From Methanobacterium sp. (GTDB taxonomy: Archaea > Methanobacteriota > Methanobacteria > Methanobacteriales > Methanobacteriaceae), in NCBI GenBank assembly GCA_003151535.1, contig PLXT01000115.1, positions 33,941-97,940 of the forward strand: a DNA stretch of 64,000 bases, in the 5' to 3' direction. The translations under genes and the position numbers were made by a program. Each line of letters begins with the position of its first letter. The first letter of the stretch is position 1. The notes below the pieces were generated by a model. The model searched no databases. It was not told where the DNA came from and saw only the letters and a list, made by a program, of their open reading frames with translations. Below, in pieces: positions 2,882 through 60,405 of this stretch.

Positions 2882-3117
2882 CTTTTTATTTCTTTATTTG
2901 ATAGTTTAATAAGTTCTTCGAAGTTTACATGAGGGTTAAAAAGGATAATACCATCCACTTTAAATCCTTCCATAATTTCATGCTTTACCGCCGCTTCAAA
3001 CGCTGCATAACAAGTTTTCATAATCTCGTCATCCAGCATATATTCACTCAGGTACCACTTTCTTCCACGCCATTCATCATCATGATCATCTTTGGTGCAA
3101 GGGCATGCGAATTGCAT
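2878..3117 (-). CDS. hypothetical protein (79 aa); overlaps the 3' end of tnpB by about 70 nt
   Basis: ORF; the overlap makes its first codons or the tnpB tail uncertain. Confidence 0.3.
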   Translation of the reverse strand: MQFACPCTKDDHDDEWRGRKWYLSEYMLDDEIMKTCYAAFEAAVKHEIMEGFKVDGIILFNPHVNFEELIKLSNKEIKR

Positions 3118-19613: not shown

Positions 19614-21164
19614 TTAGATTATGAGTTTCTTGCGAATTTCTTCAAAAGTAGTGATATTCTCAAACTCACCGTCCCTATACAATACTTTTAATGCACCCTC
19701 TTTTTCTTCGGCCATACTAACTTTTTCAATCAGTTCGTAAGTACCGCTTTCCCCAATCACTTTTCCCAATCCTGTTGCTGATTTTTTAGTACCGTCATCA
19801 GTTATGGGATCTTTGAATATTTCACGCTCTTCACCGTTTACGATGACGAAAGTAGCCTTCATCGCAAACCCAAAGGTGTCACGTGTATTAAACTGATATG
19901 TAAAGCTACCCACACCCAATACAATATTGGTGCTAGCGAAGCCTTTATCTGCTAAGCGCTGACAAATTTCTTCGGCACGTGCAATCGTGATAGAATCTCC
20001 GTACAAAGCCCCAATGTGCGTATCTAAGACTTTATAACCTTGGTCATTAATAGTGCCGCCGAAGACTTCCCATAGCAATTCAATAACTCCTTTGCATGCT
20101 GGGATATCTTTTTCTTCGATAAGCCTATCTGGCATGAATCTATTATCTAGGGTATAATATTTACCGTCAACTATAGTAAACTCTTTGTGACCACAAATTA
20201 TATCAACAGGATTACCACTGTCAGGACGTAAAACCAATTTACCATCACGAGCTAAAATTTCATTCTTCAGTGTACGAACATGCTGGGTACAGACTTTCCA
20301 TAAATCCCATGTGTCAGCTACAACACCCAATATACCTGTAGGATATATAGTGAACAGTCTGCGGATTGTTTCTACTTCATCATCTTTTTTACCTGCGCAC
20401 ATTACGCTGTGTTCAGTTGCAGGTACGGTACCAATAACTTGACCTTGTGCATTATAGTATTTTCTAGCACCATTAATAACTGGCAGTGTATCAGATCCCA
20501 TGAATGATGTGGCATGACCCAATCCAGAAGTTATTGATGGTCCAATGCCATCCATTCCACGCATGCTGAAATCATGCGCCTGCCAATCCACAAACCACGC
20601 TCTTCCTATGTCAGTTTTTTGCTGCCAATAAGACAAAAGTTTACGATAAGAATGTGCAATAGTTGCAGAAGTCATTGGCTTCCACAGCAAGTTAGAGATG
20701 ATTGTTTCAAGGAAGTTTGTAACCCAAAAAAAATCTGGGTGTGTATTTTTTATCGTTAATACTGGAACGCGAATTGGAACCAATGTACCTTCTTCCAATA
20801 TTTTCACTTCAATGGGTAGATACCCTAAGTCATGTAACCGTTCAATACGACTTACATCATAATTAACACCCAAAAGCAAAGAATATTCTCTTTTGATCTC
20901 TTGGCAAACTACATTCTTTGGTTTACTAAAAAACCCATACTGGAAGAGAGAATGTATTTCAATCATTGTCATTTGTTGACCAAATGACACTACTTGTTCA
21001 CAACCTTGTGGAGCATACTTATTACTTCTGGGCGTAAAGTTTGAACACACAAATGTTGTACCATCAGGATATTGAGGGGGGTGAGAAGTTTTGTACCCAT
21101 CACATAATAAAAATGGGTTAATAATGTCTGACACTAATTGCCAATTAATAGATTGATTGCTCAT
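19614..21164 (-). CDS. nicotinamide phosphoribosyltransferase (NAMPT/NadV) family enzyme; alternatively a NARP1-type nicotinamide ADP-ribose transferase
   Basis: LLCDGYKTSH, HDFSMRGMDG, GSDT, ATEHSV, RPDSGNP, GDSI and FKDPI motifs align along the whole NAMPT sequence. Confidence 0.85.
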   Translation of the reverse strand: MSNQSINWQLVSDIINPFLLCDGYKTSHPPQYPDGTTFVCSNFTPRSNKYAPQGCEQVVSFGQQMTMIEIHSLFQYGFFSKPKNVVCQEIKREYSLLLGVNYDVSRIERLHDLGYLPIEVKILEEGTLVPIRVPVLTIKNTHPDFFWVTNFLETIISNLLWKPMTSATIAHSYRKLLSYWQQKTDIGRAWFVDWQAHDFSMRGMDGIGPSITSGLGHATSFMGSDTLPVINGARKYYNAQGQVIGTVPATEHSVMCAGKKDDEVETIRRLFTIYPTGILGVVADTWDLWKVCTQHVRTLKNEILARDGKLVLRPDSGNPVDIICGHKEFTIVDGKYYTLDNRFMPDRLIEEKDIPACKGVIELLWEVFGGTINDQGYKVLDTHIGALYGDSITIARAEEICQRLADKGFASTNIVLGVGSFTYQFNTRDTFGFAMKATFVIVNGEEREIFKDPITDDGTKKSATGLGKVIGESGTYELIEKVSMAEEKEGALKVLYRDGEFENITTFEEIRKKLII

Positions 21165-21173
21165 GTTTTGGGG

Positions 21174-21941
21174 TTAAAAAAGTTTTATTATTGTAAGATT
21201 GTTTAAATCGTATTCGTCATATTTGCTATTGGTACAAAATACCGTTTCGTATAATGTCTCCAACTCTTTATTGGGATTCTTAACTGTCATATGACTTACA
21301 GCTAGATATAATTTACCCACGTTGCGATCCTTAAGCATCTTTGCAAGGCCCAAAAACGTCCCTCCAACCACGCATATGTCATCCGCAATTAAAATGTCTT
21401 TACCTTGGAAATCTTGCCGATCAATAACTTGTGTGAGCTTATGCGTGTGAGGATCACGGGCTTTATTGGCTCCATATACCTCACCATCGAATGATATAAT
21501 ATCGGCTAGCTTATTGATCCATTTGTAAGATCCTGCGTCCGTGGAAAGCAAAATAGGTTTTGGTGGTATTTCTGAAAGAACAGTTTTGATAAATTTGCTA
21601 TTATCAATAATTCGCACATTGTTTAGAAGTGCTGGTGTGATATCGCTATGAGGATGGAAAACATGTACCTTACCAAAGTTACAAGAGTTTATGAAATCAC
21701 ATACCAATTTCAATTCAAAGGATTGGTTGTCTGAAAACCTACGATCATGCTGTTGCTGAAACATACACGGAATTCTCAATTCAACATCTTTAATTCCGTT
21801 ATAATCACAACTGTCTTTCAGTGATTTTACAAAAAATAGATCTTCGTAGGAATTTATTTTTTCTGTAATTATGGGGTTGGTAAAATCATCAATACTGGCA
21901 TACACGCCGTTATCAGGGTATCGGTTTCTTTTATACTGCAT
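21174..21941 (-). CDS. truncated ribose-phosphate pyrophosphokinase (Prs)-like enzyme, 255 aa (candidate ADP-ribose pyrophosphokinase of NARP1)
   Basis: PRPP/phosphoribosyl-binding loop ILIADDICVVGGT and Prs C-terminal half similarity; the N-terminal Prs half is missing. Confidence 0.6.
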   Translation of the reverse strand: MQYKRNRYPDNGVYASIDDFTNPIITEKINSYEDLFFVKSLKDSCDYNGIKDVELRIPCMFQQQHDRRFSDNQSFELKLVCDFINSCNFGKVHVFHPHSDITPALLNNVRIIDNSKFIKTVLSEIPPKPILLSTDAGSYKWINKLADIISFDGEVYGANKARDPHTHKLTQVIDRQDFQGKDILIADDICVVGGTFLGLAKMLKDRNVGKLYLAVSHMTVKNPNKELETLYETVFCTNSKYDEYDLNNLTIIKLF

Positions 21942-25781: not shown

Positions 25782-26300
25782 CTATAACTCGTTAGAGTTA
25801 AGTATTTTACCGTTATTTAAAATTTTTTTTGCTTGAAAAACATTTCCCATTGTTAGTCCTACAAATCTATCAATCAAAAGGAAATTATTCCTTTGCCAAT
25901 ATAACATATCAGAATCATCATCCAATATGACATATTCAGTGAATTGATAATAGGGACCGACCAACGCTTCATTATCTTTAACCCAAGTTAATATCTCATT
26001 GCCTCTAAGACAATTATCACTACGTAAATTTGGTGTGATATCCAATATTTCTCCTTTGAATTTGTGAAATTCAAGTGCGTTTCTGCACTGCTCAATACCA
26101 TCACTTCTCCATGTTGAAGAAATTACAATCTTTGCTTGGGTGTCCTTGCACAAGGAGTTTAGATTTTGAACGCATTCTGGATCAATTTGCGAAAATCTAT
26201 GTGGTAAATTATCGAATGTTTTGTTCTTTTTTATATGGCGTTCTTTATAAAATCTTTCATGATTTAAGACACCATCGATATCCAGAAATATTATCTTCAT
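25782..26300 (-). CDS. HAD-superfamily phosphatase (172 aa)
   Basis: motif I IIFLDIDGVLN, motif II ISSTWR, motif IV ILDDDSD. Confidence 0.55.
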   Translation of the reverse strand: MKIIFLDIDGVLNHERFYKERHIKKNKTFDNLPHRFSQIDPECVQNLNSLCKDTQAKIVISSTWRSDGIEQCRNALEFHKFKGEILDITPNLRSDNCLRGNEILTWVKDNEALVGPYYQFTEYVILDDDSDMLYWQRNNFLLIDRFVGLTMGNVFQAKKILNNGKILNSNEL

Positions 26301-28515: not shown

Positions 28516-29316
28516 TTATTTATTTTCTGGTATTCTATTATCTAAAAATGTTTTTTCTTGTGTGAAAATAGGGCACTCAACACTGACCCACTTATTTCTA
28601 ACTGTATCAGTTAATGCTATTTCTTGATTTGGTATATCTCTTACATCCTGTCCATTCACAAAGGTGATCCTTTCGATAAACCCACCTCTTTTCTTCCTAG
28701 CTGGATAATCATTCCAATTAATGCCTTTCTGAAAAATTAATTCTTGTTTTGCCTCAGAATTAACTCCATGTAATTCTTTGTGAGGATATAAGGATTGGGC
28801 AACGCTGGAAATACTATTCCTAGTACAATCTTGCTGCCGCCAAATAAAATAGTTACTAACCTCAACCCTTTGAGGGATAATAAAAATACGAGCATCGAAC
28901 ATGGCTAGTTTTGGCTTTTGGACATATCTATTATCGAAAGCGTCTCGTGTTAAAAACCTTTGGCTTCTTAGTTCATTAAAAATGGCTGTTGCCGTGGATG
29001 CAGCTACGCTAACCATTTTTTGTACGTTGTTATCAAACCATGCTTGGGTTCCAATAGCATCGAAATCAGTTAACAATATACTGATTTCATCTGATTGAAC
29101 ATATGCAAATTTAGCACCGCTTAAATTCTTACATAAATACTTAGCAGTTTCATCCATGTCTTGAATAAGATCATTATCAAAAGGTCTATCCAAGCCTTTA
29201 GTCCACGTATGAAAGGATTTTCCGTCAATTCTCAGGATTGCATATGTCCTTCTAGGTAATTTAATCCTATAAGCTGTTTCATATTCCTTAATTCTATCAC
29301 CTAATGAATCTTTCAT
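28516..29316 (-). CDS. tRNA-His guanylyltransferase (Thg1)-like protein
   Basis: YAILRIDGKSFHTWTKGLDRPFD and AKFAYVQSDEISILLT match the Thg1 catalytic core. Confidence 0.75.
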   Translation of the reverse strand: MKDSLGDRIKEYETAYRIKLPRRTYAILRIDGKSFHTWTKGLDRPFDNDLIQDMDETAKYLCKNLSGAKFAYVQSDEISILLTDFDAIGTQAWFDNNVQKMVSVAASTATAIFNELRSQRFLTRDAFDNRYVQKPKLAMFDARIFIIPQRVEVSNYFIWRQQDCTRNSISSVAQSLYPHKELHGVNSEAKQELIFQKGINWNDYPARKKRGGFIERITFVNGQDVRDIPNQEIALTDTVRNKWVSVECPIFTQEKTFLDNRIPENK

Positions 29317-35135: not shown

Positions 35136-35154
35136 ATAATTTTGGAATAAAAAT

Positions 35155-35182
35155 ATAAAAGACCCTATGGGTCTTTTATATG
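35155..35182 (-). terminator. rho-independent terminator after 35193..35591
   Basis: hairpin AAAGACCC-TATG-GGTCTTT followed by T-rich tract on the minus strand. Confidence 0.5.
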
Positions 35183-35192
35183 TTTGAATTAA

Positions 35193-35591
35193 TTATTTAA
35201 TATCCATTGCCGATCTAACCTTTGCTAATTCTTCATCATCGAATTGATAATATGATCCAGTCTCAACGTTTTTAATTTGCTTGACTTTCTTTCTGAATAA
35301 AGAACGATTTACACCCTTTTCGTCATCTTCTATACCAATCAATTTCATGATATCAACCATGGAGGGTCCACCCAACTTTTCGAAACCTCTTTTTACATCA
35401 GCATACTCTTTTTTCCCAGAAGTATTCTCAGTGTGTTTTTTGATATTTTTATTTTTTTCATGGCCATCCTTACCCCCATTATGGTTAAGCCTATTATTAT
35501 GCCTATGTTTTTGCTTTTCATTAATATTGAATAATTCATCTATGGCTTCGCGTAGTTTAATTTTTATATTTTCTTTGCTCATATAATACAT
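35193..35591 (-). CDS. basic Lys-rich protein (132 aa)
   Basis: ORF only. Confidence 0.4.
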   Translation of the reverse strand: MYYMSKENIKIKLREAIDELFNINEKQKHRHNNRLNHNGGKDGHEKNKNIKKHTENTSGKKEYADVKRGFEKLGGPSMVDIMKLIGIEDDEKGVNRSLFRKKVKQIKNVETGSYYQFDDEELAKVRSAMDIK

Positions 35592-35658: not shown

Positions 35659-36519
35659 CTAATAAAGGATCTTCCTAACGCCTATTTTTAGTTTTTCTAA
35701 GGAGGAAATTTTTATTTGTCTAATCATTTCCCTAGTCAGACCAACTTCTTGTGACACTTGGTCAAGCGTCATGGGTACACTGCCATTGAGCCCATAAATA
35801 TTGATCATTATCTTTTTATCCCTAGGTTTCAACACATTCAATAAGGTATCTAACTCTTTTTGAACGTCTTTTTGAGTTAAAGAAAAATCAGGTGACCTCA
35901 TACTTTCATCCATAATTACATCATACAACGATGTTTCGTTATCACCATGAGAAAACACTCCGTCTAACGAATCGACTTTGAGATTCAGGAATTTTTCAAA
36001 ATTCTTAATTTCTTGGGGTGGTACCATACCTTCCAGTTCTTCCAGTACTTCGATAGCATCCACATGTCTACCACGTTGTTGTTCCAATTTATCCATTTTG
36101 AGGTTGAACTTAGATATGCTAGATACCTTATTACAGGGTATCCTGATCATCTTGGATGTATTGGAGATATATTCATATATAACCTTTCTAACCCAATACA
36201 CAGCATAGCTAATGAATTTAAAGCCAGTCTTTGCATCATATCTATCTGCGGCCAATATCAATCCGATATTACCCTCATTTACCAAATCTTCCAACGGCAA
36301 GTTTGTTGTTTCAAATTTTTTAGCAATCGTTACTACAAACCGTAGGTTCTTTTTGATAAGCTCTTCTTTAGCCCTTTTATCGCCATTGGCGACCTTCAAG
36401 CAACATTCATTTTCTTCATCCAGCGTAAACAATGGGATACTTGCAATATCATTAAGATATTGTTTGAATGACTGGGTGGATTTGTTTGTGATTTTCTGGG
36501 AAACTCTTAATGATCTCAT
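35659..36519 (-). CDS. RNA polymerase sigma-70 family factor
   Basis: region 2 (EGNIGLILAADRYDAKTGFKFISYAVYWVRK) and region 4 HTH (LTLDQVSQEVGLTREMIRQI). Confidence 0.8.
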   Translation of the reverse strand: MRSLRVSQKITNKSTQSFKQYLNDIASIPLFTLDEENECCLKVANGDKRAKEELIKKNLRFVVTIAKKFETTNLPLEDLVNEGNIGLILAADRYDAKTGFKFISYAVYWVRKVIYEYISNTSKMIRIPCNKVSSISKFNLKMDKLEQQRGRHVDAIEVLEELEGMVPPQEIKNFEKFLNLKVDSLDGVFSHGDNETSLYDVIMDESMRSPDFSLTQKDVQKELDTLLNVLKPRDKKIMINIYGLNGSVPMTLDQVSQEVGLTREMIRQIKISSLEKLKIGVRKILY

Positions 36520-36535
36520 AAGTCATTGAATTGAT

Positions 36536-36970
36536 TTAATTGTTATCTAACTGTCTTTTAATATCCCTCTCCTTAATACTCTCTTTCCGATCTGGCGCAT
36601 TTTTCCCTTTGGCAACGCCTATTTCTATTTTAATGAAAGAAGTGTCAGAAATTAAAACGTTCAAGGGTATGATGGTTAGGCCCTTTTCCTTGATCGCCTT
36701 TGAAAGCTTATTGAGTTCACCTTTGCGTAAGAGTAAACACCTATCCCTGCTGGGCACATGATTTGTATACTTGATATTAGCATACTCACTAACATGCATA
36801 TTTCGTATGAATAAGTCACCACCCGTAAAAGAACAAAAAGCTTCGTTTATTGATGCTTTTAATTGCTTTATTGATTTAACCTCAGTTCCAGTGAGTTGAA
36901 TACCAGCAGTATATCTATCTGTAATGAAGTATTCATGGCTGGCCTTTTTGTTTCGGATGATAATCTTCAT
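36536..36970 (-). CDS. smpB: SsrA-binding protein SmpB
   Basis: KKASHEYFITDRYTAGIQLTGTEVKS..., RDRCLLLRKGELNKL and basic C-terminal tail match SmpB throughout. Confidence 0.8.
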   Translation of the reverse strand: MKIIIRNKKASHEYFITDRYTAGIQLTGTEVKSIKQLKASINEAFCSFTGGDLFIRNMHVSEYANIKYTNHVPSRDRCLLLRKGELNKLSKAIKEKGLTIIPLNVLISDTSFIKIEIGVAKGKNAPDRKESIKERDIKRQLDNN

Positions 36971-37141
36971 TAAACGAATTGAGGATAGTTATGCGCAAAA
37001 GTGTGGAAAAAAAGCAACTAATTCTTAGAGATCACTATGAAATACGCTGGCGTACTTATTGCATGAGATAATCTACTGAGAACTAAAGCGTAGACAAATA
37101 TACACAGTGTGTGGAAGAAAAACAACTAATTCTAAAAAGAA

Positions 37142-37792
37142 TTATAAATAAAATGATATAGGCTTATTTCTATATCTGTAGCTCTCTCCCAAGGAGCTAG
37201 CATTAACAAAGGTAGTACCATCCATAATTTTAGTCCCATAACTATGATGAACATGGCCACAGACGTGATATCTTGGCTTAACTTCTACAATTTTCTTATA
37301 TAATTCCTCACAGCCAACCCTTAGTCCAGCGTAAGTGTTATCCAGTATGCCATATAGTGGTCCGTGGGTCATAACTATATCCATACCTTGTGGTATAGTC
37401 TCCCATTTCTTTGCAATGGCGGCTCCCCTGTCCACATTAAACGCCCAATCATTAAATCTAGGCTGCCAAGGGCTACCGTATATCTTTATACCATTCAATT
37501 CAACCATTTTATCCATAAGATACACAATACCCATATCCTGGAACATTGGTGCGATCTCATGGTTATCCTCAAACGCCCAATCGTGATTACCAGCAATGAA
37601 GCATTTATAGCGACATTTTAAATTGCCAAACCAAGTTAAAAAGCTTACAATTTCCTTTGTTTTACCCTGCATAGTAATATCTCCAGCATGTAAAACTATT
37701 GTATTTTCATAATCCGTTATGAGAGAGGCTAAGTCTTTTGATAACTCATAATGTCGATTATGGGTGTCACTAATAGTAATTATTTTTATCAC
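37142..37792 (-). CDS. calcineurin-like metallophosphoesterase
   Basis: DTH, GD, GNHD and GH motifs (ISDTHNRH, AGDITMQG, AGNHDWAFE, CGHVHH). Confidence 0.6.
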   Translation of the reverse strand: MIKIITISDTHNRHYELSKDLASLITDYENTIVLHAGDITMQGKTKEIVSFLTWFGNLKCRYKCFIAGNHDWAFEDNHEIAPMFQDMGIVYLMDKMVELNGIKIYGSPWQPRFNDWAFNVDRGAAIAKKWETIPQGMDIVMTHGPLYGILDNTYAGLRVGCEELYKKIVEVKPRYHVCGHVHHSYGTKIMDGTTFVNASSLGESYRYRNKPISFYL

Positions 37793-39693
37793 ATCGCAAT
37801 CATTAAATTGATATTTTTACGTTCAATATCAACGCTGGTTACTTGGACAAGAACTTCATCGCCCAATCGTATAACACGCCCAGTATTATGTCCTTTCACA
37901 CAGTAGTGCTTCAGGTCAGTTATATAAGTATCCCCTTGTATTTCGCTAACTCTTACCATACCATCAACCTTGTTTTCAATCAATTCGACGAATACACCAT
38001 ATTCTGTAATGCTTGTTATTATACCCTTATATAAGAACCCAATTCTTTGACTCATATACACACTCTGCATATATTTAATACTCTCCCGTTCAGCCTTTTG
38101 CGCTTTGAGTTCACAATTGCTTAAGTATAAAGCCCAATGTTCCAATTGTTCAATACTGGGTGTGGGCTTTTGGGTTAAAAATCTATTTAAGAGTCTGTGT
38201 ACTATAATATCAGGATATCTTCTAATGGGGCTTGTAAAATGAGCATAATCTTCAAACCCCAATCCATAATGCCCCATATTTTTTGTAGTATAAAAAGCTT
38301 TTTGCATTGTTCTAACAACCAAATTAGAAACTAGATTTTCTTCAGTCTTACCCTTAACATCCACCAATAATTTATTCAAAGATTTTGCAATTTCTTGAGG
38401 AGAGGTTATCCTAATGTCATAATCAAACTCTTTTATAAATTTTTTCAAATCTAAAAGCTTTTCAGTGCTTGGTTCTTCGTGAACCCTACTGATAACAGGA
38501 TAGCTGTTATTTTTTAAAATACGTGCAACGGCTTTATTAGCCAAAAGCATAAATTCTTCAATCAACTTATTAGCATCTTTACTAGTCTTGAATATTATAT
38601 CAGTAGGCTTACCATCTACTAATTTAAATCTTATTTCATCTTTATCGAACGTTAGAGAACCATCTTTTAACCTATCCTTCCTTAACTTATTCGCTAGAAC
38701 ATTCAAGTCGATAATACACTTATCAGTACCATATACACTTGAATTATCTTCAATAACCATTTGTGCTCCTTCATACGTATACCTATGATTGGAATGGATA
38801 ATTGTCTTGCCAAACCACTCATGTAGAATATTAGCATCTTTATCCATTGTAAATATAACCGAGAAACACAACTTATCTTCATACGGCCTTAAGCTACATA
38901 GTTCATTGGATAGCCTCTCTGGTAACATAGGGACAACACGATCCACTAAATACACGCTAGTACCTCTGCGATAAGCCTCTTTATCTAAATCAGTGTCTGA
39001 TTTTAGATAATGCGATACATCAGCGATATGTACGCCAACTTGTATATTTCCATCAGCCCATTCCACAGATAATGCATCGTCAAAATCTTTAGCGTCTTCA
39101 GGATCAATTGTAAATGTTGTAACATTACGCATGTCTTTACGGCTTAAAATTTCATCTTCCGTTATTTCGGCAGATATAGATTTTGCTTCAGCCAAAACAT
39201 CATATTCGAAATTATACGGTAAACCATATTCATGTAGTATTGAATGAATTTCAGCATCATTATTGCCAGCATCCCCCAAAACCTGTATAACTTGTCCGTG
39301 TGGATTTTTACTATTTTTAGCCCAGTATTTTATCCTAACAATAGCTTTTTGACCATCTTTAGCTTTATTTAATTCGTTTAAAGGAATAAAAATATCCACG
39401 AGCAATTTATTACTATCAGGAATTAAATATGCACCAGTGGAAACCATGTTAATTGTACCAACATAGTCTTTTTTTGTCCTCCCAACTATTTTTGTAACAA
39501 CACCCTCTATATTTCTCCCGCCACCTTTAACTATAAGCACTTTAACAAGATCCAGATGTAATGCGTGATTAGTATTAGCTTTACTGATATATATCTCTTT
39601 AGGTAGCTTATCACTCTGAAGATAAGCGCTACCACTGGAATTAAAATTAATCGTACCTTTCAAAACATCTCCAATATTAATCATGTCGCCCAC
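37789..39693 (-). CDS. RNase R / RNase II-family 3'-5' exoribonuclease (RNB domain plus C-terminal S1 domain)
   Basis: RNB catalytic motif DPEDAKDFDDALS, cold-shock-like N-terminus, S1-like C-terminus (GIITSITEYGVFVEL). Confidence 0.8.
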   Translation of the reverse strand: MGDMINIGDVLKGTINFNSSGSAYLQSDKLPKEIYISKANTNHALHLDLVKVLIVKGGGRNIEGVVTKIVGRTKKDYVGTINMVSTGAYLIPDSNKLLVDIFIPLNELNKAKDGQKAIVRIKYWAKNSKNPHGQVIQVLGDAGNNDAEIHSILHEYGLPYNFEYDVLAEAKSISAEITEDEILSRKDMRNVTTFTIDPEDAKDFDDALSVEWADGNIQVGVHIADVSHYLKSDTDLDKEAYRRGTSVYLVDRVVPMLPERLSNELCSLRPYEDKLCFSVIFTMDKDANILHEWFGKTIIHSNHRYTYEGAQMVIEDNSSVYGTDKCIIDLNVLANKLRKDRLKDGSLTFDKDEIRFKLVDGKPTDIIFKTSKDANKLIEEFMLLANKAVARILKNNSYPVISRVHEEPSTEKLLDLKKFIKEFDYDIRITSPQEIAKSLNKLLVDVKGKTEENLVSNLVVRTMQKAFYTTKNMGHYGLGFEDYAHFTSPIRRYPDIIVHRLLNRFLTQKPTPSIEQLEHWALYLSNCELKAQKAERESIKYMQSVYMSQRIGFLYKGIITSITEYGVFVELIENKVDGMVRVSEIQGDTYITDLKHYCVKGHNTGRVIRLGDEVLVQVTSVDIERKNINLMIAM

Positions 39694-40198
39694 TTTTTAT
39701 TTCTGTTATATCAAAGGCGATATCCTTCGATGCACCCCAAACTTTAAATTCGGCAATGTGTAGTTCACGGTCTTCAAACATGTGAATAGTTTCAATCTTT
39801 GGGCACTTACTAATTAACCCTTCTAAATAATTTAATTTAACTTTCAATGTCTCTCCACCAGTGTTATACAAATATGTATCAAAAGTTAGATCGTAATGCT
39901 CTAATAATTTTTCAACCTCTGGAGACAATTTTTTTAGTCTCCCAGTCATCATTACCATAAGAGTATTTGGAGCATCCTTTTCTTTTATATAAGCAGCTAT
40001 TGTCTCTGGGATGACTGGCATTTCAAACATGTTAAAATCCAAACTCTGGGCGATTGACCACCACCCCTTGTGAGGCCATTTTTTTCCTGTTTTTTCCTCA
40101 TACTCTTTGCGGCCAATAGCAGGCATTGGCGTGTCGATGAGTGTCCCATCTAGATCAAATATCGCCAACCTATCTATTTTATTTAATTCCTTACCCAT
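39677..40198 (-). CDS. HAD-superfamily hydrolase (173 aa)
   Basis: motif I LAIFDLDGTLIDT. Confidence 0.5.
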   Translation of the reverse strand: MGKELNKIDRLAIFDLDGTLIDTPMPAIGRKEYEEKTGKKWPHKGWWSIAQSLDFNMFEMPVIPETIAAYIKEKDAPNTLMVMMTGRLKKLSPEVEKLLEHYDLTFDTYLYNTGGETLKVKLNYLEGLISKCPKIETIHMFEDRELHIAEFKVWGASKDIAFDITEIKSGRHD

Positions 40199-41105: not shown

Positions 41106-41377
41106 AGCTTTAATTTTTCTGGTCTACTTAACTGCTTTATTCGATATTCTTCTTTAGCTGCTAAACTTCTATTTTCAGCGAAGAAAAACGCAGCAAGTTT
41201 AACTGGTCTTCTTATTCTAGTATACTTAGCCCCTTTACCAGCATTGTGTTGCTTAATCCTTCTATTAATATCGTTTGTAATACCAGTATATAATGAATGA
41301 TCTGAACATTGTAGGATATAGACATACCATTCACGTATACAATTATTTTGCTTTTCGTTCATTAATCTTCTTTTCAA
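41069..41377 (-). CDS. GIY-YIG nuclease-superfamily protein (YhbQ/UPF0213-like, 102 aa)
   Basis: WYVYILQCSDHSLYTGITNDINRRIKQH...GKGAKYT. Confidence 0.6.
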   Translation of the reverse strand: MKRRLMNEKQNNCIREWYVYILQCSDHSLYTGITNDINRRIKQHNAGKGAKYTRIRRPVKLAAFFFAENRSLAAKEEYRIKQLSRPEKLKLCEKQSILKNML

Positions 41378-41817
41378 TCTTTTTCATTAATCTATCCAAT
41401 TGTTCTAAAGCTAACATTTGTGCAGTGTGCAGCATGGGTTTAGCCTCCTTCAAAGTAGCCCATCTATAGCCATCCATTTCTGGGAAGCCTCCCTTCTCAG
41501 GGGCCACATTTGAATTACATTTCAATTCAAACGATTCGAAATCAAAATTATTCTGGGTTTCAAATACTGCATAACAATACAGTATTTTTTTATCCGTTTC
41601 ATATTCTATAGGGTCCAAATTATGCATCACCTTCCATTCAGCCAAATCTACATTGGTCTCTTCGAATGTTTCCCTTAGAGCACTATCTAATAACTCCTCA
41701 CCCTTATCCACACGGCCTTTCGGTATGCTCCAAAAATTTGGACTATGTTTCGTTGGATGACATAATAGAATTTTATTATCTTTTCTAACTAAGAAAATCC
41801 CTGCTATTTTAACCATT
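41343..41817 (-). CDS. Nudix hydrolase (start trimmed to MVKIAGIFLV...)
   Basis: Nudix box GRVDKGEELLDSALRETFEETNV. Confidence 0.65.
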
Positions 41818-41818
41818 T

Positions 41819-43420
41819 TTACGGTTTTAAAGTTGTGTATTGTCCATTTATAAAGAAAATATGCTGTGCTTTTCCATCTTGATGTATGATAACATGTGCA
41901 TGTAACCAAGAACTAGCACCATTATTATAACCCAATCTAAGTTTGGTTGTTGTACCAACACATAGGGCACCGTCTTTGCGTTGAGGCGTATGCGAATGTG
42001 CGACTACAATCTTAGTATTTAAGCCCCTAAATTGAATGAATGTGCCTCTGCTGCCATTTTTACCAATATGTCCATGCTGGCCCAGTTCCCAATTTTTGAC
42101 TTTATAAGAATCATTTAAACCTAAGCTTTTAAATGAAGGATGATGCTTTTTTATTATTTCAGGTAACACACCCTTAACACCATCATTAACATCAACATGT
42201 TGTTTTAATAATAATGTACTATATTCCATATACACCATTGAATTCTTTGGCGTGGGTTGCTTTCGCCAATCTTCATTCGCCAACCAACGGTCTATAAAAT
42301 CATCATGATTACCCCTGGAAATAACGACATTTTCAAAATCATTAAAAGGTTTTAATCCTTCGATCAAAGCATCTATTTCCCCTTGTACGGAATTAGTACC
42401 ATTAATTTCTTTAGCGTATTGAACAAACGGATTTTTCATCTCATGATGATTAATTGATGCCCCATCAAATGCATCATGTATCACGACATGCTTTGGTTTT
42501 AAAAGACTAGTCAATTCAAACGTTTTATTTAAAACATCTTCATCATGTTGGCCATAATGTAAATCACCCATTATTAAAGCTTCGCATTCATTTATCGTTT
42601 GGACTTTACCTTCTTCCACTTTGAAGTAAAGGTCGGTGAAGGCACCAGTGACATCATCTGCAGTTACTTGTCTAACAAAAAACATTTTATCATCCTTTAT
42701 CTCAACAACTACAAATCCAAACGTATGGTGAAACTCGCCCTTTTTACCTGCTTTACTGTCAGTATAATTTATTAATGTTACAGCACCTGTGGTTAACATC
42801 ATTTTAGGATAATTACCTTGAAGAACTGGAATCATTTCCATTTGTACCTTGGGGCTACCAAAAATACAAGAATTCATTCCGCTCATTGCTTGTAGACCAC
42901 TCATTGGGTTAGTTGCAGTGGGTTGAATTTTAATATCACTCATGACCGATAAATATTTATGTATGTCATGACGATTAGCATCTAAATATGGTAGAACTTC
43001 ATCGACCCAAAAATCAGAATCAACATCAGTAAAAACACTTGTTGGATTCTTGTACCTTCCAGCTATTATATGTAAGCCAGCATCCAAAAAATTTGTGTAT
43101 GCCAATATATTTTCAAAAAATGCTTTATGTACGGGCGTATTATTCTGGGCGAAAGTAATAATGAATCTTTTTTTAGTAGTGTCAACAACCTTTATCTTAG
43201 CCAACTTATAATGTTCAGATTCAACATCTTTTTTTTCTTTTAGACCCATATTTTCGTTGGTCCATTTTCTCATTGTGCGCTGAGTAACACCAAATTCATT
43301 AGCCAATTTAGACGCGCGATCTTCCCAAGAACCATTCTCCTTATCAAAATATACTTTTTTAATATAGTCAATATCTTTTTGTTTTAAATCTTTAAATTTT
43401 TTAACCTTTCTTTTGCTCAT
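41819..43420 (-). CDS. metallophosphoesterase-domain protein with basic N-terminal HTH-like segment (533 aa)
   Basis: DLHYGQ, GNHD-like (RGNHDDFIDRW) and GH-type motifs; function unknown. Confidence 0.35.
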   Translation of the reverse strand: MSKRKVKKFKDLKQKDIDYIKKVYFDKENGSWEDRASKLANEFGVTQRTMRKWTNENMGLKEKKDVESEHYKLAKIKVVDTTKKRFIITFAQNNTPVHKAFFENILAYTNFLDAGLHIIAGRYKNPTSVFTDVDSDFWVDEVLPYLDANRHDIHKYLSVMSDIKIQPTATNPMSGLQAMSGMNSCIFGSPKVQMEMIPVLQGNYPKMMLTTGAVTLINYTDSKAGKKGEFHHTFGFVVVEIKDDKMFFVRQVTADDVTGAFTDLYFKVEEGKVQTINECEALIMGDLHYGQHDEDVLNKTFELTSLLKPKHVVIHDAFDGASINHHEMKNPFVQYAKEINGTNSVQGEIDALIEGLKPFNDFENVVISRGNHDDFIDRWLANEDWRKQPTPKNSMVYMEYSTLLLKQHVDVNDGVKGVLPEIIKKHHPSFKSLGLNDSYKVKNWELGQHGHIGKNGSRGTFIQFRGLNTKIVVAHSHTPQRKDGALCVGTTTKLRLGYNNGASSWLHAHVIIHQDGKAQHIFFINGQYTTLKP

Positions 43421-44451: not shown

Positions 44452-44925
44452 CTATTTTCCTTCTTTAATTAGATCCTCACGTACCTTTGTGACTATTTCA
44501 CCCAACCAATTTGTTCCTTGCCATTGGCTTTTATCTTGGATTCTACTATCGGTTTCACCTAAACCAATACCCCAAATTTTATCAACAGGAGAAGCTTCAA
44601 CCAGTTCGGTACCAATAGTTTCCATAAGACTATTATAGAAACTTTTATTTTGCGTGAACTTTGCATAATTACCCTTATACACAATGTCCTTACAAACTGC
44701 TTCCCATTTCTCTTTATTAAACCCACGGATTTGGCGACCAAGTGCTTTCTGTTCTGCTGGATTTTTCGTTGCCAGTATTTTTTTGAATATCTCACGGTCT
44801 TCAAAAAGCAAAGCCTTTTGTGCCATCATGAATTGTTCCGCTGTTCCATAACCAATGCCGTCAACAACGAAACTTGAACGAGCCCATTGACTGAACGGAC
44901 CACCGTAGAAAAATGTGTATTTCAT
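44452..44925 (-). CDS. NADAR/YbiA-family (DUF1768) protein, putative ADP-ribose/N-glycoside hydrolase
   Basis: FFYGGPFSQWARSSF...DGIGYGTAEQFMMAQKA...W.G.N.LG pattern of the YbiA/NADAR family. Confidence 0.6.
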   Translation of the reverse strand: MKYTFFYGGPFSQWARSSFVVDGIGYGTAEQFMMAQKALLFEDREIFKKILATKNPAEQKALGRQIRGFNKEKWEAVCKDIVYKGNYAKFTQNKSFYNSLMETIGTELVEASPVDKIWGIGLGETDSRIQDKSQWQGTNWLGEIVTKVREDLIKEGK

Positions 44926-47534: not shown

Positions 47535-48086
47535 TTACTGTAGATTATAATTTTTCTTAGTACCATCCGATTTAGAATATATAAAATTTTTAATTTCAGG
47601 ATTGGTTAGCTTCACACCTGAAAATTCCTTGATGTATTTCTTCGCTGTACCCTTCTTCAGATAGGCTATCGTACAATGTGGATGATAATTAGGAAACTGA
47701 CAAGTATGTGGTAATTTCTTGAAGAGTTTATTTAATTTGACTAAATCAGAACTCTCAATATCAAATTTTAAGACATCGAAATCATCATTAGTAAAAGAAG
47801 TAATGCTACCAAACTCAATAAGAGGCTCCTTAATCGTTTCAATTAAGTCTTCAACATCCTTGTCAGGTACATCGGTGTGAATACCGTATAATACTGTTAT
47901 GTGTGGGTTCATCTCACGACCAGCACCAGTTTCATAAGCGCTTATATCCTCATCAGATATTTTACTTTGAAACTCTTTCCATTCGTCCGAATCAACTTTA
48001 AGGATAACAGCTACATTATTGTAATCATACACCCTTTTGGCTTCTAATAAAGCTTGTCTTAATTTATCCTTTAGATTCATCTTCAT
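47535..48086 (-). CDS. hypothetical protein (183 aa)
   Basis: ORF only. Confidence 0.45.
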   Translation of the reverse strand: MKMNLKDKLRQALLEAKRVYDYNNVAVILKVDSDEWKEFQSKISDEDISAYETGAGREMNPHITVLYGIHTDVPDKDVEDLIETIKEPLIEFGSITSFTNDDFDVLKFDIESSDLVKLNKLFKKLPHTCQFPNYHPHCTIAYLKKGTAKKYIKEFSGVKLTNPEIKNFIYSKSDGTKKNYNLQ

Positions 48087-48504: not shown

Positions 48505-48588
48505 GAATGAATTGAAACTGTTAACTATTTAGCCAGCCTAAGCTGTTTCTAGTTATTACCACGTAGAGGTAAGTTAACATTAATAACC

Positions 48589-49637: not shown

Positions 49638-49722
49638 TGGGGCTGATAGGACTCGAACCTACTAAGCCTTTTGAGCAGAAGTTTTACAGACTTCCCATAC
49701 ACTCCAACGTATGCGCATCCCC
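49638..49722 (-). tRNA. tRNA-Tyr (anticodon GTA), type II
   Basis: 85 nt; acceptor GGGGATG/CAGCCCC (A5.G68 mismatch), anticodon stem GAAGT/ACTTC, loop CTGTAAA, long variable arm. Confidence 0.55.
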
Positions 49723-53816: not shown

Positions 53817-54452
53817 TTATATTTTAACTTGTTTCATTTCTTGATTATATGACTCGGGGTCTTTATTCCTCAATCTTTCAAACCAATCATTTGTTTTTAT
53901 CTTACAGTAGTATAACTGACTGGTTTTTTTTGTTTGAACGGTTCCCTTGCAGATCACACCTTCGCTCAATCCAAACTCATTTTCTTTTACACGGCTAACA
54001 AACTCTTTATTTAAATTACCATTGTAGACTACTCTAGGAATACCAGCTTCACCAAAATTATTCATAAACTCTTTTGGCGCTATTAAACCTTTTTTATATC
54101 TAGAAATATCAAATAAGGTAATATCAAACGTATCGTTTATAAAATCATGCTGCCCAAAAGAAGATCTAATACCCAGCAATTCTGCGAAACACACAAACGA
54201 TAATGAATCACGATATTCTTTAGATTTGAATATTCGAGTTAACTTCTCTTCGTACTTGTCCTTGAATAGTTTAATTGCAAAGCCCCATGTCTCATGGTTC
54301 TCATCAATCATCATATTTCTCGTACCGAATTTATAAAACCCTCTTTTAGGGGAGTATTCCACCCTTATGTTTGATCCATCTAGCTTATCAAACGCAACAA
54401 TGGGGATACCCCAGTTATCCCCATAATAATCTATAGTATTATATGCTTTCAT
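53817..54452 (-). CDS. RNA ligase, Rnl2-like nucleotidyltransferase domain (211 aa)
   Basis: motif I KLDGSN (lysine adenylyltransferase KxDG) near the N-terminus and downstream Rnl2-like conservation. Confidence 0.55.
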   Translation of the reverse strand: MKAYNTIDYYGDNWGIPIVAFDKLDGSNIRVEYSPKRGFYKFGTRNMMIDENHETWGFAIKLFKDKYEEKLTRIFKSKEYRDSLSFVCFAELLGIRSSFGQHDFINDTFDITLFDISRYKKGLIAPKEFMNNFGEAGIPRVVYNGNLNKEFVSRVKENEFGLSEGVICKGTVQTKKTSQLYYCKIKTNDWFERLRNKDPESYNQEMKQVKI

Positions 54453-59610: not shown

Positions 59611-59722
59611 TAGGGCGAGAGGGAGTCGAACCCTCACGGGCATTTCTGCCCAATAGATTAACGGAGCGACGAATAGAAGACCCCGTTAAGTCTATCTCGG
59701 CTACCAATTACGACACCGCCCC
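59611..59722 (-). ncRNA. 112-nt tRNA-like RNA (Leu-like type II features; anticodon stem ATAGA/TCTAT enclosing a 13-nt loop CTTAACGGGGTCT and an extra 21-nt segment)
   Basis: acceptor GGGGCGG/TCGCCCT, D-loop AATTGGTAG, variable-arm hairpin GGGCA-GAAA-TGCCC, T-arm GAGGG-TTCGACT-CCCTC; too long for a standard tRNA. Confidence 0.35.
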
Positions 59723-60316: not shown

Positions 60317-60388
60317 AATTTTTAGTAGTCCCTGAGAATTCTGAGATCTCGACCCTCGCCATGTAAAGACGATGCTCTTCCTCTGAGC
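60317..60388 (-). tRNA. tRNA-Val (anticodon TAC) with non-canonical T-loop
   Basis: acceptor GGTCCCT/AGGGACT, D-arm GCTC-AGAGGAA-GAGC, anticodon stem TCGTC/GGCGA, loop TTTACAT; T-loop CTCAGAA lacks TTCGA. Confidence 0.4.
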
Positions 60389-60405
60389 TAAGGGACCATA
60401 TTATT

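What the first reader, a model, noticed from the sequence alone, without database searches (positions are those of the whole stretch)
35659..39693. Phage-encoded trans-translation module: sigma factor, SmpB, metallophosphoesterase and RNase R, with no tmRNA found
SmpB (144 aa, conserved along its whole length including the basic C-terminal tail) and an RNase R-type exoribonuclease (RNB plus S1) are encoded 170 nt apart on the same strand, downstream of a sigma-70 family factor. In bacteria SmpB-tmRNA recruits RNase R to non-stop mRNAs. A virus carrying both partners, but no ssrA that I could find, suggests it either boosts or redirects host ribosome rescue using the host tmRNA. A possible purpose is clearing ribosomes stalled by anticodon nucleases, mRNA interferases or late-gene stop-codon suppression. 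Phage smpB genes are rare, and pairing with RNase R is to my knowledge unusual.
Basis: partly seen in the sequence, partly recalled or inferred. Interest (0 to 1): 0.8.

Follow-up and report, generated by a model that had tools for sequence, protein, structure and literature searches.

The report
Huge-phage SmpB beside tail-less RNase R
A 348-kb phage of Bacteroidota carries real copies of the ribosome-rescue protein SmpB and the RNA-degrading enzyme RNase R close together and no rescue RNA (tmRNA) in the parts I could read, but this block is shared by a known group of huge phages and the two genes look like neighbours in an RNA-repair island, not a dedicated pair.

Summary
The genes are real. 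On the minus strand, in the direction of transcription, lie a HAD_SAK_1 phosphatase, RNase R, an MPPED2-type metallophosphoesterase, SmpB and a sigma-70 factor. SmpB and RNase R both pass NCBI's equivalog cut-offs, and the RNB Asp cluster is intact.

Two details in the finding are wrong. The ~170-nt gap separates SmpB from the phosphoesterase; RNase R ends 818 nt upstream of smpB. The sigma gene lies downstream of smpB, not upstream.

I found no tmRNA in the window or about 18 kb of flanks, using Rfam, ARAGORN and nhmmer. That covers only about 24% of the 348-kb genome.

The block is not rare.
- It is colinear in at least 27 IMG/VR contigs.
- It occurs in the published Mahaphage RTP_PHAGE_33_21.
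- Al-Shayeb et al. 2020 already reported SmpB and tmRNA in huge phages.
- A sister clade carries a tmRNA directly upstream of smpB.
- One complete relative with both genes shows no detectable tmRNA.

Three results argue against a dedicated SmpB–RNase R pair.
- The phage RNase R lacks the Lys-rich tail that E. coli needs for SmpB-tmRNA recruitment.
- smpB-sigma appears to have its own host-type promoter.
- RNase R, SmpB and the phosphoesterase each occur widely without the others.

Best reading: SmpB probably uses host tmRNA, and RNase R is a general exonuclease within a tRNA and RNA-repair island. This is a new member of a known kind, of moderate interest.

The parts
39677..40198 (-). HAD-superfamily phosphatase (HAD_SAK_1 type), 173 aa. 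It overlaps the RNase R start by 8 nt. Candidate RNA 3'-phosphate end-healing enzyme.
   Evidence: PF10307 HAD_SAK_1, E 4.6e-10. phrog_415 'polynucleotide kinase', E 6e-9. Found directly upstream of RNase R in 37 of 40 clade-A loci.
37789..39684 (-). RNase R core enzyme (CSD1-CSD2-RNB-S1), 631 aa from the ATG at 39684; the ORF extends to a GTG at 39693. It lacks the N-terminal HTH and the C-terminal Lys-rich domain.
   Evidence: TIGR02063 at 676 bits against a cut-off of 598, covering model positions 67-709 of 711. The E. coli-type model NF008648 matches positions 83-723 of 813. B. subtilis RNase R (8cdu) aligns over residues 70-707 of 779. Asp197/203/205/206 and SPIRRYPD are invariant. The protein ends ...ERKNINLMIAM, directly after S1.
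37142..37792 (-). MPPED2-family calcineurin-like metallophosphoesterase, 216 aa, with all five metal-binding and catalytic motifs. It overlaps the RNase R stop by 4 nt.
   Evidence: Pfam Metallophos and Metallophos_2. PDB 3rl4 (MPPED2), E 1e-43. Motifs DxH, GD, GNHD, H and GHxH are invariant in 15 phage homologues.
36971..37141 (-). Spacer between the phosphoesterase gene and smpB. It holds a ~30-nt direct repeat (copies starting at 37129 and 37021). After the distal copy comes a Bacteroidota-type promoter: TTG, 20 nt, then TATATTTG at 37102-37095. It is not a tmRNA remnant.
   Evidence: Folding z-score is -1.28. No Rfam or nhmmer tmRNA signal.
36536..36970 (-). smpB, 144 aa, of Bacteroidota type (YTAGIQLTGTEVKS). 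The tail is GKNAPDRKESIKERDIKRQLDNN.
   Evidence: PF01668 at 170 bits. NF003843 at 169.6 against 130, and TIGR00086 at 162 against 119. Aligns end to end with solved SmpBs. 55-58% identical to Bacteroidota SmpB.
35659..36519 (-). Phage sigma-70-family factor, 286 aa, 16 nt downstream of smpB. This is the most tightly conserved neighbour pair in the block.
   Evidence: Pfam Sigma70 r1.2, r2 and r4. phrog_351. Follows smpB in 23 IMG/VR loci and in RTP_PHAGE_33_21, where it is 43% identical.
35153..35181 (-). Strong intrinsic-terminator-like hairpin (13 bp plus a T-run) downstream of the 132-aa gene at 35193-35591 that follows sigma. Probable end of the smpB-sigma unit.
41343..43420 (-). Upstream conserved neighbours. 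One is a 533-aa protein resembling the T5 A1 'DNA transfer protein', with metallophosphoesterase motifs (41819-43420). The other is a NUDIX hydrolase with RppH-like hits below cut-off (41343-41909 as a maximal ORF).
   Evidence: phrog_1745, E 8e-147. NUDIX by NCBIfam and Pfam. Colinear in clade A.

Best explanation
This is a conserved early-gene block of a ~348-kb huge phage that infects Bacteroidota. The phage belongs to the Mahaphage lineage, close to the published RTP-BML1 group. The block sits inside a ~60-kb island of tRNA genes and RNA-repair enzymes.

**Shown**
- smpB is a full-length, conserved orthologue of Bacteroidota smpB.
- The gene annotated as RNase R is a catalytically intact core enzyme without the HTH and Lys-rich domains.
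- No tmRNA gene lies in the 82 kb examined, or next to smpB in any relative of this clade.

**Inferred**
- SmpB is made early, together with the phage sigma factor, from a host-type promoter.
- SmpB binds the host's tmRNA. This keeps trans-translation running, and so ribosome supply, while mRNAs are being cut during infection by host defence RNases or by phage-driven RNA turnover.
- The tail-less RNase R acts as a general processive 3'->5' exonuclease on host or damaged RNA.
- The adjacent HAD_SAK and MPPED2-type phosphoesterases may assist it by converting 3'-phosphate or 2',3'-cyclic-phosphate ends to 3'-OH.
- RNase R is not recruited to ribosomes by SmpB-tmRNA in the E. coli manner.
- The two genes are neighbours because both belong to the lineage's RNA-maintenance island, not because they form a dedicated two-gene system.
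For: **Gene identities:**

**Phage identity and genome size**
- The exact SmpB and RNase R proteins sit on ENA scaffold WOOD18-1...scaffold_55, 348,046 bp.
- RTP_PHAGE_33_21 (338,752 bp, Mahaphage) has SmpB at 53% identity followed by a sigma factor at 43%.

**Bacteroidota host**
- All 80 best bacterial SmpB relatives are Bacteroidota.
- The -7 box TAnnTTTG occurs 80 times on the coding strand against 36 on the other strand and 38±6 in shuffles. The full consensus TTTG-N19-TAtaTTTG precedes the tRNA arrays and smpB.

**No tmRNA**
- Window.
- About 18 kb of flanks.
- nhmmer with tmRNA profiles found every positive control but nothing in the window or any clade-A locus.
- 0 of 40 clade-A RNase R loci contain one.
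- The complete Mahaphage LR756502 has SmpB and RNase R. ARAGORN and nhmmer find no tmRNA genome-wide, and Rfam finds none in the 150 kb holding smpB and 44 of its 46 tRNAs.

**Trans-translation is what these phages select for:** sister-clade phages place a tmRNA (Rfam 67-86 bits) about 60 nt upstream of smpB.

**Separate transcription units**
- HAD_SAK, RNase R and the phosphoesterase genes overlap one another.
- In the closest relatives a terminator hairpin plus TAT(A/C)TTTG separates the phosphoesterase gene from smpB.
- smpB and sigma are 16 nt apart.

**No recruitment domain:**

**RNA-repair island**
- Found in or beside the window: T4 Rnl1, two other RNA ligases, a LigT-like 2H phosphoesterase, a Thg1-like protein, HAD_SAK_2, a PPK2-HAD_SAK_2 fusion, and about 20 tRNA genes counting both finders.
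- Sources.
Against: - About 76% of the genome could not be read, so a phage tmRNA elsewhere is not excluded.
- Nothing here tests binding of the phage SmpB to host tmRNA.
- Pro126 replaces the His136/Tyr position that contacts G530 and C1400 of 16S rRNA, and Asn124 replaces Lys134. Function could be altered.
- In Bacteroidota genomes smpB and rnr are not neighbours (1 of 80). The phage therefore brought them within 1-10 kb independently, in the same order as the Gram-positive secG-rnr-smpB cluster. This hints at some functional tie.
- The promoter and terminator calls are consensus matches only.
- The end-healing role of the two phosphoesterases is inferred from family membership alone.
- The MPPED2-type enzyme occurs in at least 575 viral loci, almost always without SmpB or RNase R.
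Confidence: 0.55

Rival explanations
1. Dedicated trans-translation module. Phage SmpB, with host tmRNA, rescues stalled ribosomes and specifically recruits the phage RNase R to destroy the non-stop mRNA. The adjacency reflects that partnership.
For: - Both genes are conserved within 0.8-9.5 kb and in the same order in at least 27 phage contigs.
- The same order, rnr then smpB, is a co-transcribed cluster in Gram-positive bacteria.
- The arrangement is not inherited from Bacteroidota hosts, where only 1 of 80 genomes has rnr near smpB.
Against: - RNase R lacks the Lys-rich domain, the only known determinant of recruitment to tmRNA-rescued ribosomes. E. coli RNase R truncated at residue 723 is defective, and the phage enzyme ends at the equivalent position.
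- A terminator and a promoter lie between the units in close relatives.
- The spacing is variable and filled with unrelated genes.
- A second large phage RNase R clade (40 loci) has no SmpB. SmpB clades such as the tmRNA-bearing one and the Lak-like phages have no RNase R nearby.
- In three huge-phage genomes of about 640 kb the two genes lie about 92-294 kb apart.
Confidence: 0.15
2. The phage is self-sufficient. It encodes its own tmRNA in the ~266 kb not examined, as its sister clade does next to smpB.
For: - Sister-clade huge phages carry a tmRNA directly upstream of smpB.
- Al-Shayeb et al. 2020 report tmRNAs in huge phages.
- Only about 24% of this genome was read.
Against: - No tmRNA at the syntenic position in any of 27 clade-A loci that include smpB.
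- None in or near the tRNA arrays of the window.
- The complete genome LR756502, which has both genes, shows none.
Confidence: 0.2
3. Antagonist. The phage SmpB is a decoy that sequesters host tmRNA or blocks tagging, which protects phage proteins from tmRNA-directed proteolysis.
For: - No cognate tmRNA was found.
- The tail deviates at two ribosome-contacting positions: His136 to Pro126 and Lys134 to Asn124.
Against: - The rest of the tail is conserved: Gly hinge, D-R-K, and Lys/Arg spacing.
- Close relatives keep Y/F/H at the variable position.
- The protein scores above both equivalog cut-offs.
- The sister clade pairs a similar SmpB with a tmRNA that has a plausible tag ending in ...VAA or ...VVA.
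Confidence: 0.07
4. Artefact. The genes are bacterial DNA mis-assigned to a phage, for example a prophage boundary at ssrA, where smpB and rnr are often swept in.
For: Many 'phage' database records with adjacent rnr-smpB or smpB-ssrA are of exactly this kind. Examples are Listeria, Staphylococcus and Enterococcus records, and IMG/VR contigs with smpB at the contig edge next to a bacterial tmRNA.
Against: - Here the genes lie mid-way in a one-strand phage gene array on a 348-kb scaffold. That scaffold carries Gp23, a holin, T4 Rnl1 and a T5 A1-like gene.
- Relatives are 200-385-kb viral contigs.
- Bacteroidota smpB neighbourhoods look entirely different.
Confidence: 0.02

Closest known systems
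Mahaphage huge phages of Al-Shayeb et al. 2020, group RTP-BML1 (RTP_PHAGE_33_21, BML_PHAGE_34_18, LP_PHAGE_31_18)
   Same: - Genome size of about 330-350 kb and about 33% GC.
- Same order: RNase R, then SmpB, then a sigma factor 50 nt after smpB.
- SmpB is 53% identical and sigma 43%.
- The paper's text already lists SmpB and tmRNA among huge-phage translation genes.
   Different: - This is a different species-level genome. Its closest database relatives have SmpB at 68-70% and RNase R at 74% identity.
- RNase R and SmpB are only 0.8 kb apart here, against 5.5 kb in RTP_PHAGE_33_21.
- The published paper does not discuss RNase R, the gene pairing, or which SmpB phages lack a tmRNA.
E. coli trans-translation with RNase R non-stop mRNA decay
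   Same: Orthologous SmpB (with DKR-type tail motif and Gly hinge) and an orthologous RNase R catalytic core with CSD and S1 domains.
   Different: - No tmRNA gene found.
- RNase R lacks the HTH and the Lys-rich domain (E. coli residues 723-813; key residues 735-750) required for recruitment to rescued ribosomes.
- SmpB has Pro where E. coli has His136.
Gram-positive secG-rnr-smpB(-ssrA) gene cluster (S. pneumoniae; Moreira et al. 2012)
   Same: rnr lies upstream of smpB on the same strand.
   Different: - In the phage a phosphoesterase gene and a promoter-bearing spacer lie between them.
- There is no secG and no ssrA.
- The phage genes are of Bacteroidota type, and Bacteroidota genomes do not cluster rnr with smpB.
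- The bacterial RNase R keeps its Lys-rich tail.
Sister clade of huge phages with a tmRNA-SmpB cassette (for example IMGVR_UViG_3300002835_000001, 297 kb)
   Same: SmpB is 46-50% identical. A homologous MPPED2-type phosphoesterase (37-42% identical) lies upstream of smpB, and tRNA arrays are nearby.
   Different: - That clade has a tmRNA about 60 nt upstream of smpB and a GOLLD RNA upstream of the phosphoesterase gene.
- It has no RNase R, HAD_SAK or sigma factor within 10 kb.
T4-type RNA repair (Pnkp plus Rnl1) against anticodon nucleases
   Same: The island around the block encodes a T4 Rnl1-type ligase, further RNA ligases, HAD-type phosphatases matching the phage polynucleotide kinase family, a PPK2-type kinase fusion and a 2H phosphoesterase.
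   Different: SmpB and RNase R are not part of the T4 pathway. Their link to repair is inferred from location only.

Membership tests
SmpB (SsrA-binding protein) | Sequence scores above the curated family cut-offs over the full length | tested here: met
   PF01668 at 170 bits against 27. NF003843 at 169.6 against 130. TIGR00086 at 162 against 119. Residues 2-142 are covered.
SmpB (SsrA-binding protein) | C-terminal basic tail with Gly hinge and D-K-R motif | tested here: met
   G122; D127-R128-K129 (K and R swapped); K133; R135; 15 residues follow the motif. Deviations: His136 equivalent is Pro126 and Lys134 equivalent is Asn124.
SmpB (SsrA-binding protein) | Binds tmRNA and supports peptide tagging | not testable with these tools
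   Needs EMSA or complementation.
Complete trans-translation system (SmpB plus tmRNA) | A tmRNA (ssrA) gene in the same genome | tested here: inconclusive
   None in 82 kb (window plus flanks) by Rfam, ARAGORN and nhmmer. About 266 kb of the scaffold could not be read.
RNase R (TIGR02063) | Equivalog score, CSD1-CSD2-RNB-S1 architecture and four catalytic Asp residues | tested here: met
   676 bits against a cut-off of 598. The RNase II models stay far below their cut-offs. Domains. D197/D203/D205/D206 are invariant.
RNase R (trans-translation-competent form, E. coli type) | C-terminal Lys-rich domain needed for recruitment to tmRNA-rescued ribosomes | tested here: not met
   The protein ends directly after S1, with 6 K+R in its last 40 residues. 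It aligns to positions 83-723 of the 813-position E. coli-type model. A Bacteroidota RNase R does have a basic tail. The requirement is documented in PMC3949413.
RNase R (trans-translation-competent form, E. coli type) | N-terminal helix-turn-helix domain | tested here: not met
   The TIGR02063 match starts at model position 67. The B. subtilis alignment starts at residue 70.
rnr-smpB operon (Gram-positive type) | rnr immediately upstream of smpB and co-transcribed with it | tested here: not met
   A phosphoesterase gene and a 171-nt spacer with a promoter-like site lie between them. Close relatives show a terminator hairpin plus a -7 box there. Transcripts were not measured.
MPPED2-type metallophosphoesterase | Sequence similarity to MPPED2 and the five calcineurin-like motifs | tested here: met
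   PDB 3rl4, E 1e-43. Motifs are invariant in 15 phage homologues. The substrate is unknown.
Mahaphage huge phages (Al-Shayeb 2020) | Orthologous gene content and order with a named member | tested here: met
   RTP_PHAGE_33_21 has RNase R, SmpB (53% identical) and sigma (43%) in the same order. The clade was defined by a terminase phylogeny, which was not tested here.

The most novel reading that the evidence does not exclude
A whole clade of ~350-kb Bacteroidota phages has kept smpB but dispensed with its own tmRNA, while a sister clade keeps tmRNA beside smpB. These phages would then load the host's tmRNA with a phage-made SmpB.

A tail-less RNase R and two RNA-end phosphoesterases would work with it. 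Together they would form a counter-defence unit. It would rescue ribosomes and clear the 2',3'-cyclic-phosphate-ended RNA fragments produced by host anticodon nucleases and toxin RNases.
Probability: 0.2. Interest if true: 0.6.

Novelty: new member of a known kind. Interest (0 to 1): 0.35.

Why it matters
If the phage SmpB does work with host tmRNA, it would be a clear case of a virus supplying the protein half of a ribonucleoprotein rescue machine and borrowing the RNA half.

The contrast between the tmRNA-bearing and tmRNA-less sister clades gives a natural experiment on what trans-translation does for a phage. The block also marks a large tRNA and RNA-repair island, useful for studying how huge phages withstand RNA-targeting defences.

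As it stands, it adds one more genome to a published pattern of translation genes in huge phages, together with a caution. 'SmpB plus RNase R' should not be read as a coupled pair when the RNase R lacks its recruitment domain.

Tried and rejected
1. **tmRNA remnant in the 171-nt spacer.** No Rfam hit at E<=10, no nhmmer hit, and folding z-score -1.28. Rejected; the spacer is a duplicated promoter region.
2. **Short, tag-less tRNA-like tmRNA, as in mycobacteriophage DS6A.**
   - A scan for T-arm plus G3:U70 acceptor elements found nothing credible.
   - The two 'tRNA-Sec-like' sub-threshold hits are a long-arm tRNA-Tyr and an odd 109-nt tRNA-like RNA without alanine identity.
No tmRNA signal.
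4. **Genome-wide tmRNA test by cross-matching IMG/VR contig names.** I scanned with a generic tmRNA 3'-end pattern.
5. **Walking along the 348-kb scaffold.** Look-ups are restricted to window-encoded proteins, so only about 9 kb was gained on each side.
6. **The MPPED2-type phosphoesterase as a dedicated SmpB partner.** It flanks smpB in both clades, which suggested this. Rejected: at least 575 viral relatives exist, and 79 of the 80 best loci have no SmpB, RNase R or tmRNA.
7. **Stop-codon recoding.** All three stop codons are used and there is no suppressor tRNA in the window.
8. **Direct megablast of the block against GenBank phages.** No match.
9. **Single-protein search of IMG/VR with SmpB.** Nothing found; an alignment query was needed.
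10. **The Burroughs and Aravind RNA-repair paper.** Not held in the library. The SAK family meaning rests on the Pfam description and my own knowledge.

Full report
**1. What is in the sequence**

Window 35659-40198 holds five intact genes, all on the minus strand. In the direction of transcription they are:
- a HAD_SAK_1 phosphatase (39677-40198);
- RNase R (37789-39684; the ORF runs back to a GTG at 39693);
- a metallophosphoesterase (37142-37792);
- SmpB (36536-36970);
- a sigma-70-family factor (35659-36519).

The family assignments are far beyond chance.
- SmpB scores 170 bits on PF01668 and passes both NCBIfam equivalogs.
- RNase R scores 378 bits on RNB and 676 bits on TIGR02063 against a cut-off of 598. 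The RNase II models fall far short of theirs.
- The catalytic cluster TIDPEDAKDFDDAL and the SPIRRYPD motif are present, and they are invariant in 24 relatives.

Two descriptive points in the finding are wrong.
- The ~170-nt gap lies between smpB and the phosphoesterase gene. RNase R ends 818 nt upstream of smpB.
- Sigma lies downstream of smpB, not upstream.

**2. Finer anatomy of the two key proteins**

The SmpB is of Bacteroidota type. Its YTAGIQLTGTEVKS motif is shared by all phage and Bacteroidota relatives.

I mapped it onto the E. coli residues described in the cryo-EM work of Guyomar et al. (PMC8363625).
- Kept: His22, Tyr24, the Gly132 hinge, a D-R-K version of the DKR motif, and the Lys143/Arg145 equivalents.
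- Changed: Pro126 stands where E. coli has His136 (most relatives have Tyr, Phe or His), and Asn124 stands where E. coli has Lys134.

The RNase R is a core-only enzyme.
- It aligns to residues 70-707 of the 779-aa B. subtilis enzyme, and to positions 83-723 of the 813-position E. coli-type model.
- It ends directly after the S1 domain.
- It therefore lacks the N-terminal HTH and the C-terminal Lys-rich domain.
- A Bacteroidota RNase R (Chitinophaga, 690 aa) does carry basic N- and C-terminal extensions.

**3. What genome this is**

The exact SmpB and RNase R proteins sit on a 348,046-bp ENA scaffold, WOOD18-1_SAMN07125042_METAG-scaffold_55.

Relatives of both proteins lie on contigs of 200-385 kb.

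The neighbourhood is phage-like. Genes run on one strand. There are Gp23 capsid-family hits, a holin, T4 Rnl1, a T5 A1-like protein and tRNA arrays totalling about 20 genes across the two finders.

In the supplementary GenBank files of Al-Shayeb et al. 2020, RTP_PHAGE_33_21 shows the same layout.
- It is 338,752 bp and belongs to clade Mahaphage, group RTP-BML1, together with BML_PHAGE_34_18.
- Its RNase R has a near-identical N-terminus.
- 5.5 kb further on it has SmpB at 53% identity, followed 50 nt later by an RpoD-family sigma factor at 43% identity.

The host is almost certainly a member of Bacteroidota.
- All 80 best bacterial SmpB relatives come from that phylum.
- The Bacteroidota -7 box TAnnTTTG is enriched on the coding strand: 80 occurrences, against 36 on the other strand and 38±6 in shuffles.
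- The full TTTG-N19-TAtaTTTG consensus sits in front of the tRNA arrays.

**4. The tmRNA question**

The window has no tmRNA by any method.
- Rfam at gathering score, and Rfam at E<=10 including the permuted and organellar models.
- ARAGORN.
- nhmmer profiles built from 12 tmRNAs, five of them from phages.

I gained about 9 kb beyond each end of the window. Those stretches are negative too.

That makes 82 kb, or about 24% of the genome. The rest could not be fetched.

Indirect evidence:
- 0 of 40 related RNase R loci, 27 of which include smpB, contain a tmRNA.
- I fetched the complete, curated Mahaphage genome LR756502 (642 kb) in full. It has both SmpB and RNase R.
- In LR756502, ARAGORN and nhmmer find no tmRNA anywhere. 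Rfam finds none in the 150 kb that holds smpB and 44 of its 46 tRNAs.

The methods do detect phage tmRNAs. In a sister clade (SmpB 46-50% identical) a tmRNA of 67-86 Rfam bits lies about 60 nt upstream of smpB in all eight loci. ARAGORN alone missed three of those eight.

**5. How special is the pairing**

SmpB in huge phages is stated in the main text of Al-Shayeb et al. 2020. It also forms a PHROG family of 'unknown function'.

In IMG/VR the RNase R has at least 146 relatives.
- The 40 closest (at least 55% identical, plus one at 49%) show one colinear order: T5 A1-like, NUDIX, HAD_SAK, RNase R, phosphoesterase, SmpB, sigma.
- Among them the RNase R-to-SmpB spacing varies from 0.8 to about 9.5 kb and is filled with unrelated genes.
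- The next 40 (46-51% identical) have RNase R alone.

SmpB occurs without RNase R in the tmRNA-bearing clade and in Lak-like phages. In three huge-phage genomes of about 640 kb both genes are present but about 92-294 kb apart.

The MPPED2-type phosphoesterase flanks smpB in both clades. It is nonetheless a very common phage gene: at least 575 relatives, and 79 of the 80 best loci lack SmpB, RNase R and tmRNA.

In Bacteroidota genomes smpB is next to neither rnr (1 of 80) nor ssrA (0 of 80). In Gram-positive bacteria, secG-rnr-smpB is a co-transcribed cluster (PMC3534368).

Many 'phage' database records with adjacent rnr-smpB or smpB-ssrA are prophage-edge artefacts of that bacterial arrangement. 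This window is not one of them.

**6. Transcription units**

- HAD_SAK, RNase R and the phosphoesterase genes overlap one another by 8 and 4 nt.
- smpB and sigma are 16 nt apart.
- Between the two groups lies a 171-nt spacer. It holds a duplicated ~30-nt segment and a TTG-N20-TATATTTG promoter-like site.
- In the five closest relatives the same position has a terminator hairpin followed by TAT(A/C)TTTG, about 25 nt before the smpB ATG.
- A strong terminator-like hairpin follows the small gene after sigma.

This points to an smpB-sigma unit read by host RNA polymerase, separate from the RNase R unit. It rests on consensus matches, not on transcripts.

**7. Mechanism**

In E. coli, RNase R is recruited to tmRNA-rescued ribosomes through its Lys-rich domain. 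[quoted passage not shown] SmpB binds that region (PMC3534368). The phage enzyme stops at the equivalent position.

The reading I favour (about 0.55):
- SmpB is an early protein that loads host tmRNA and keeps ribosomes recycling.
- The core RNase R is a general 3'->5' exonuclease for host or damaged RNA.
- The flanking HAD_SAK phosphatase matches the phage polynucleotide-kinase family. The MPPED2-type phosphoesterase is related to a cyclic-nucleotide phosphodiesterase. Either may prepare 3' ends for the exonuclease.
- All of them sit together because the lineage gathers RNA-maintenance genes in one island.

That island includes three RNA ligases, a 2H phosphoesterase, a Thg1-like enzyme, HAD_SAK_2, a PPK2-HAD_SAK_2 fusion and the tRNA arrays.

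Rivals:
- a truly coupled module (0.15);
- a phage tmRNA elsewhere in the genome (0.2; compatible with most of the above);
- an antagonist SmpB (0.07);
- a bacterial artefact (0.02).

**8. Verdict**

The case is a new member of a known kind: a Mahaphage-type huge phage with translation and RNA-repair genes.

My comparison adds four points:
- the split between smpB phages with and without a tmRNA;
- the loss of the recruitment domain from the phage RNase R;
- the tight smpB-sigma pairing;
- the evidence that the RNase R-SmpB proximity is lineage synteny, not a dedicated system.

Interest is moderate (0.35). The most novel reading still open is a clade-wide hijack of host tmRNA tied to clearance of defence-damaged RNA. 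I give it about 0.2.

Noticed in passing
window 48520-48588 (-): A sub-threshold match to the HDV-like ribozyme family RF02682 (33.3 bits against a gathering score of 44; E 0.022). It exactly fills the gap between tRNA-Gly(GCC) and tRNA-Gly(UCC). It resembles the tRNA-associated 'theta' HDV-like ribozymes described in gut phages (PMC10879173), here without any suppressor tRNA.
   Followed up: partly
window 59613-59721 (-); 49639-49722 (-); 60326-60397 (-): Three tRNA-like genes that ARAGORN missed.
- A 109-nt element with a normal acceptor and T-arm but a greatly extended anticodon arm. Its identity is unknown.
- A long-arm tRNA-Tyr(GUA).
- A 72-nt tRNA seen only by Rfam.
   Followed up: partly
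window 61639-61861: A tandem array of about 18 copies of a 12-nt unit (CTGATGTTATTA, with a 72-nt higher-order period) in a gene-poor stretch. Two independent assemblies end inside it: ENA scaffold_55 and a 96-kb ENA contig. The window therefore spans the ends of the 348-kb scaffold, which suggests a circular or circularly permuted genome. The array could be iterons, an origin or a packaging site.
   Followed up: partly
window 11647-13251, 25782-26300, 28516-29316, 47535-48086, 53817-54452; L060 586-6303: A dense RNA-repair gene set.
- In the window: a PPK2-HAD_SAK_2 fusion, HAD_SAK_2, a Thg1-like protein, a LigT-like 2H phosphoesterase (with a faint Acb1 hit) and an RNA ligase (PF09414).
- Just beyond the right end of the window: a T4 Rnl1-type ligase, a 462-aa ligase-like protein, a 406-aa metallophosphoesterase and another RNA ligase.
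   Followed up: partly
L022 7137-7541; L015 7383-7791; L274 38685-39091 (LR756502): GOLLD RNA (RF02032, 275-316 bits) in huge phages. In the sister clade the order is tRNA array, GOLLD, MPPED2-type phosphoesterase, tmRNA, smpB. No GOLLD was found in this window.
   Followed up: no
window 60642, 58231, 56261, 53586, 50734, 50506, 30989 (minus-strand start positions of the -7 box): A strongly conserved promoter-like consensus, ATATTTGCTTTT-N8-10-TTTTGTATATTTG. This is the Bacteroidota -33 TTTG / -7 TAnnTTTG type. It recurs mainly in front of tRNA arrays.
   Followed up: partly
window 3048-4358 (-): An IS200/IS605-family TnpB (OrfB_IS605, Cas12f1-like TNB domain), 436 aa, inside the phage genome.
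   Followed up: no
window 19614-21941, 44452-44925 (-): NAD-salvage and ADP-ribose genes: NAPRTase (516 aa), a phosphoribosyltransferase (255 aa) and NADAR. A close relative (L002) also has a SIR2 protein inserted next to NADAR.
   Followed up: no
window 41819-43420 (-): A 533-aa protein with no Pfam or NCBIfam hit. It matches phrog_1745 'DNA transfer protein' (T5 A1-like) at E 8e-147 and carries metallophosphoesterase motifs. It is conserved upstream of the block in most clade-A loci.
   Followed up: partly
L014, L027, L030 (IMG/VR sister-clade loci): A point of method. ARAGORN missed 3 of 8 phage tmRNAs that Rfam (67-81 bits) and nhmmer detect. Surveys of tmRNA in huge phages based on ARAGORN alone, as in Al-Shayeb et al. 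2020, probably undercount.
   Followed up: yes
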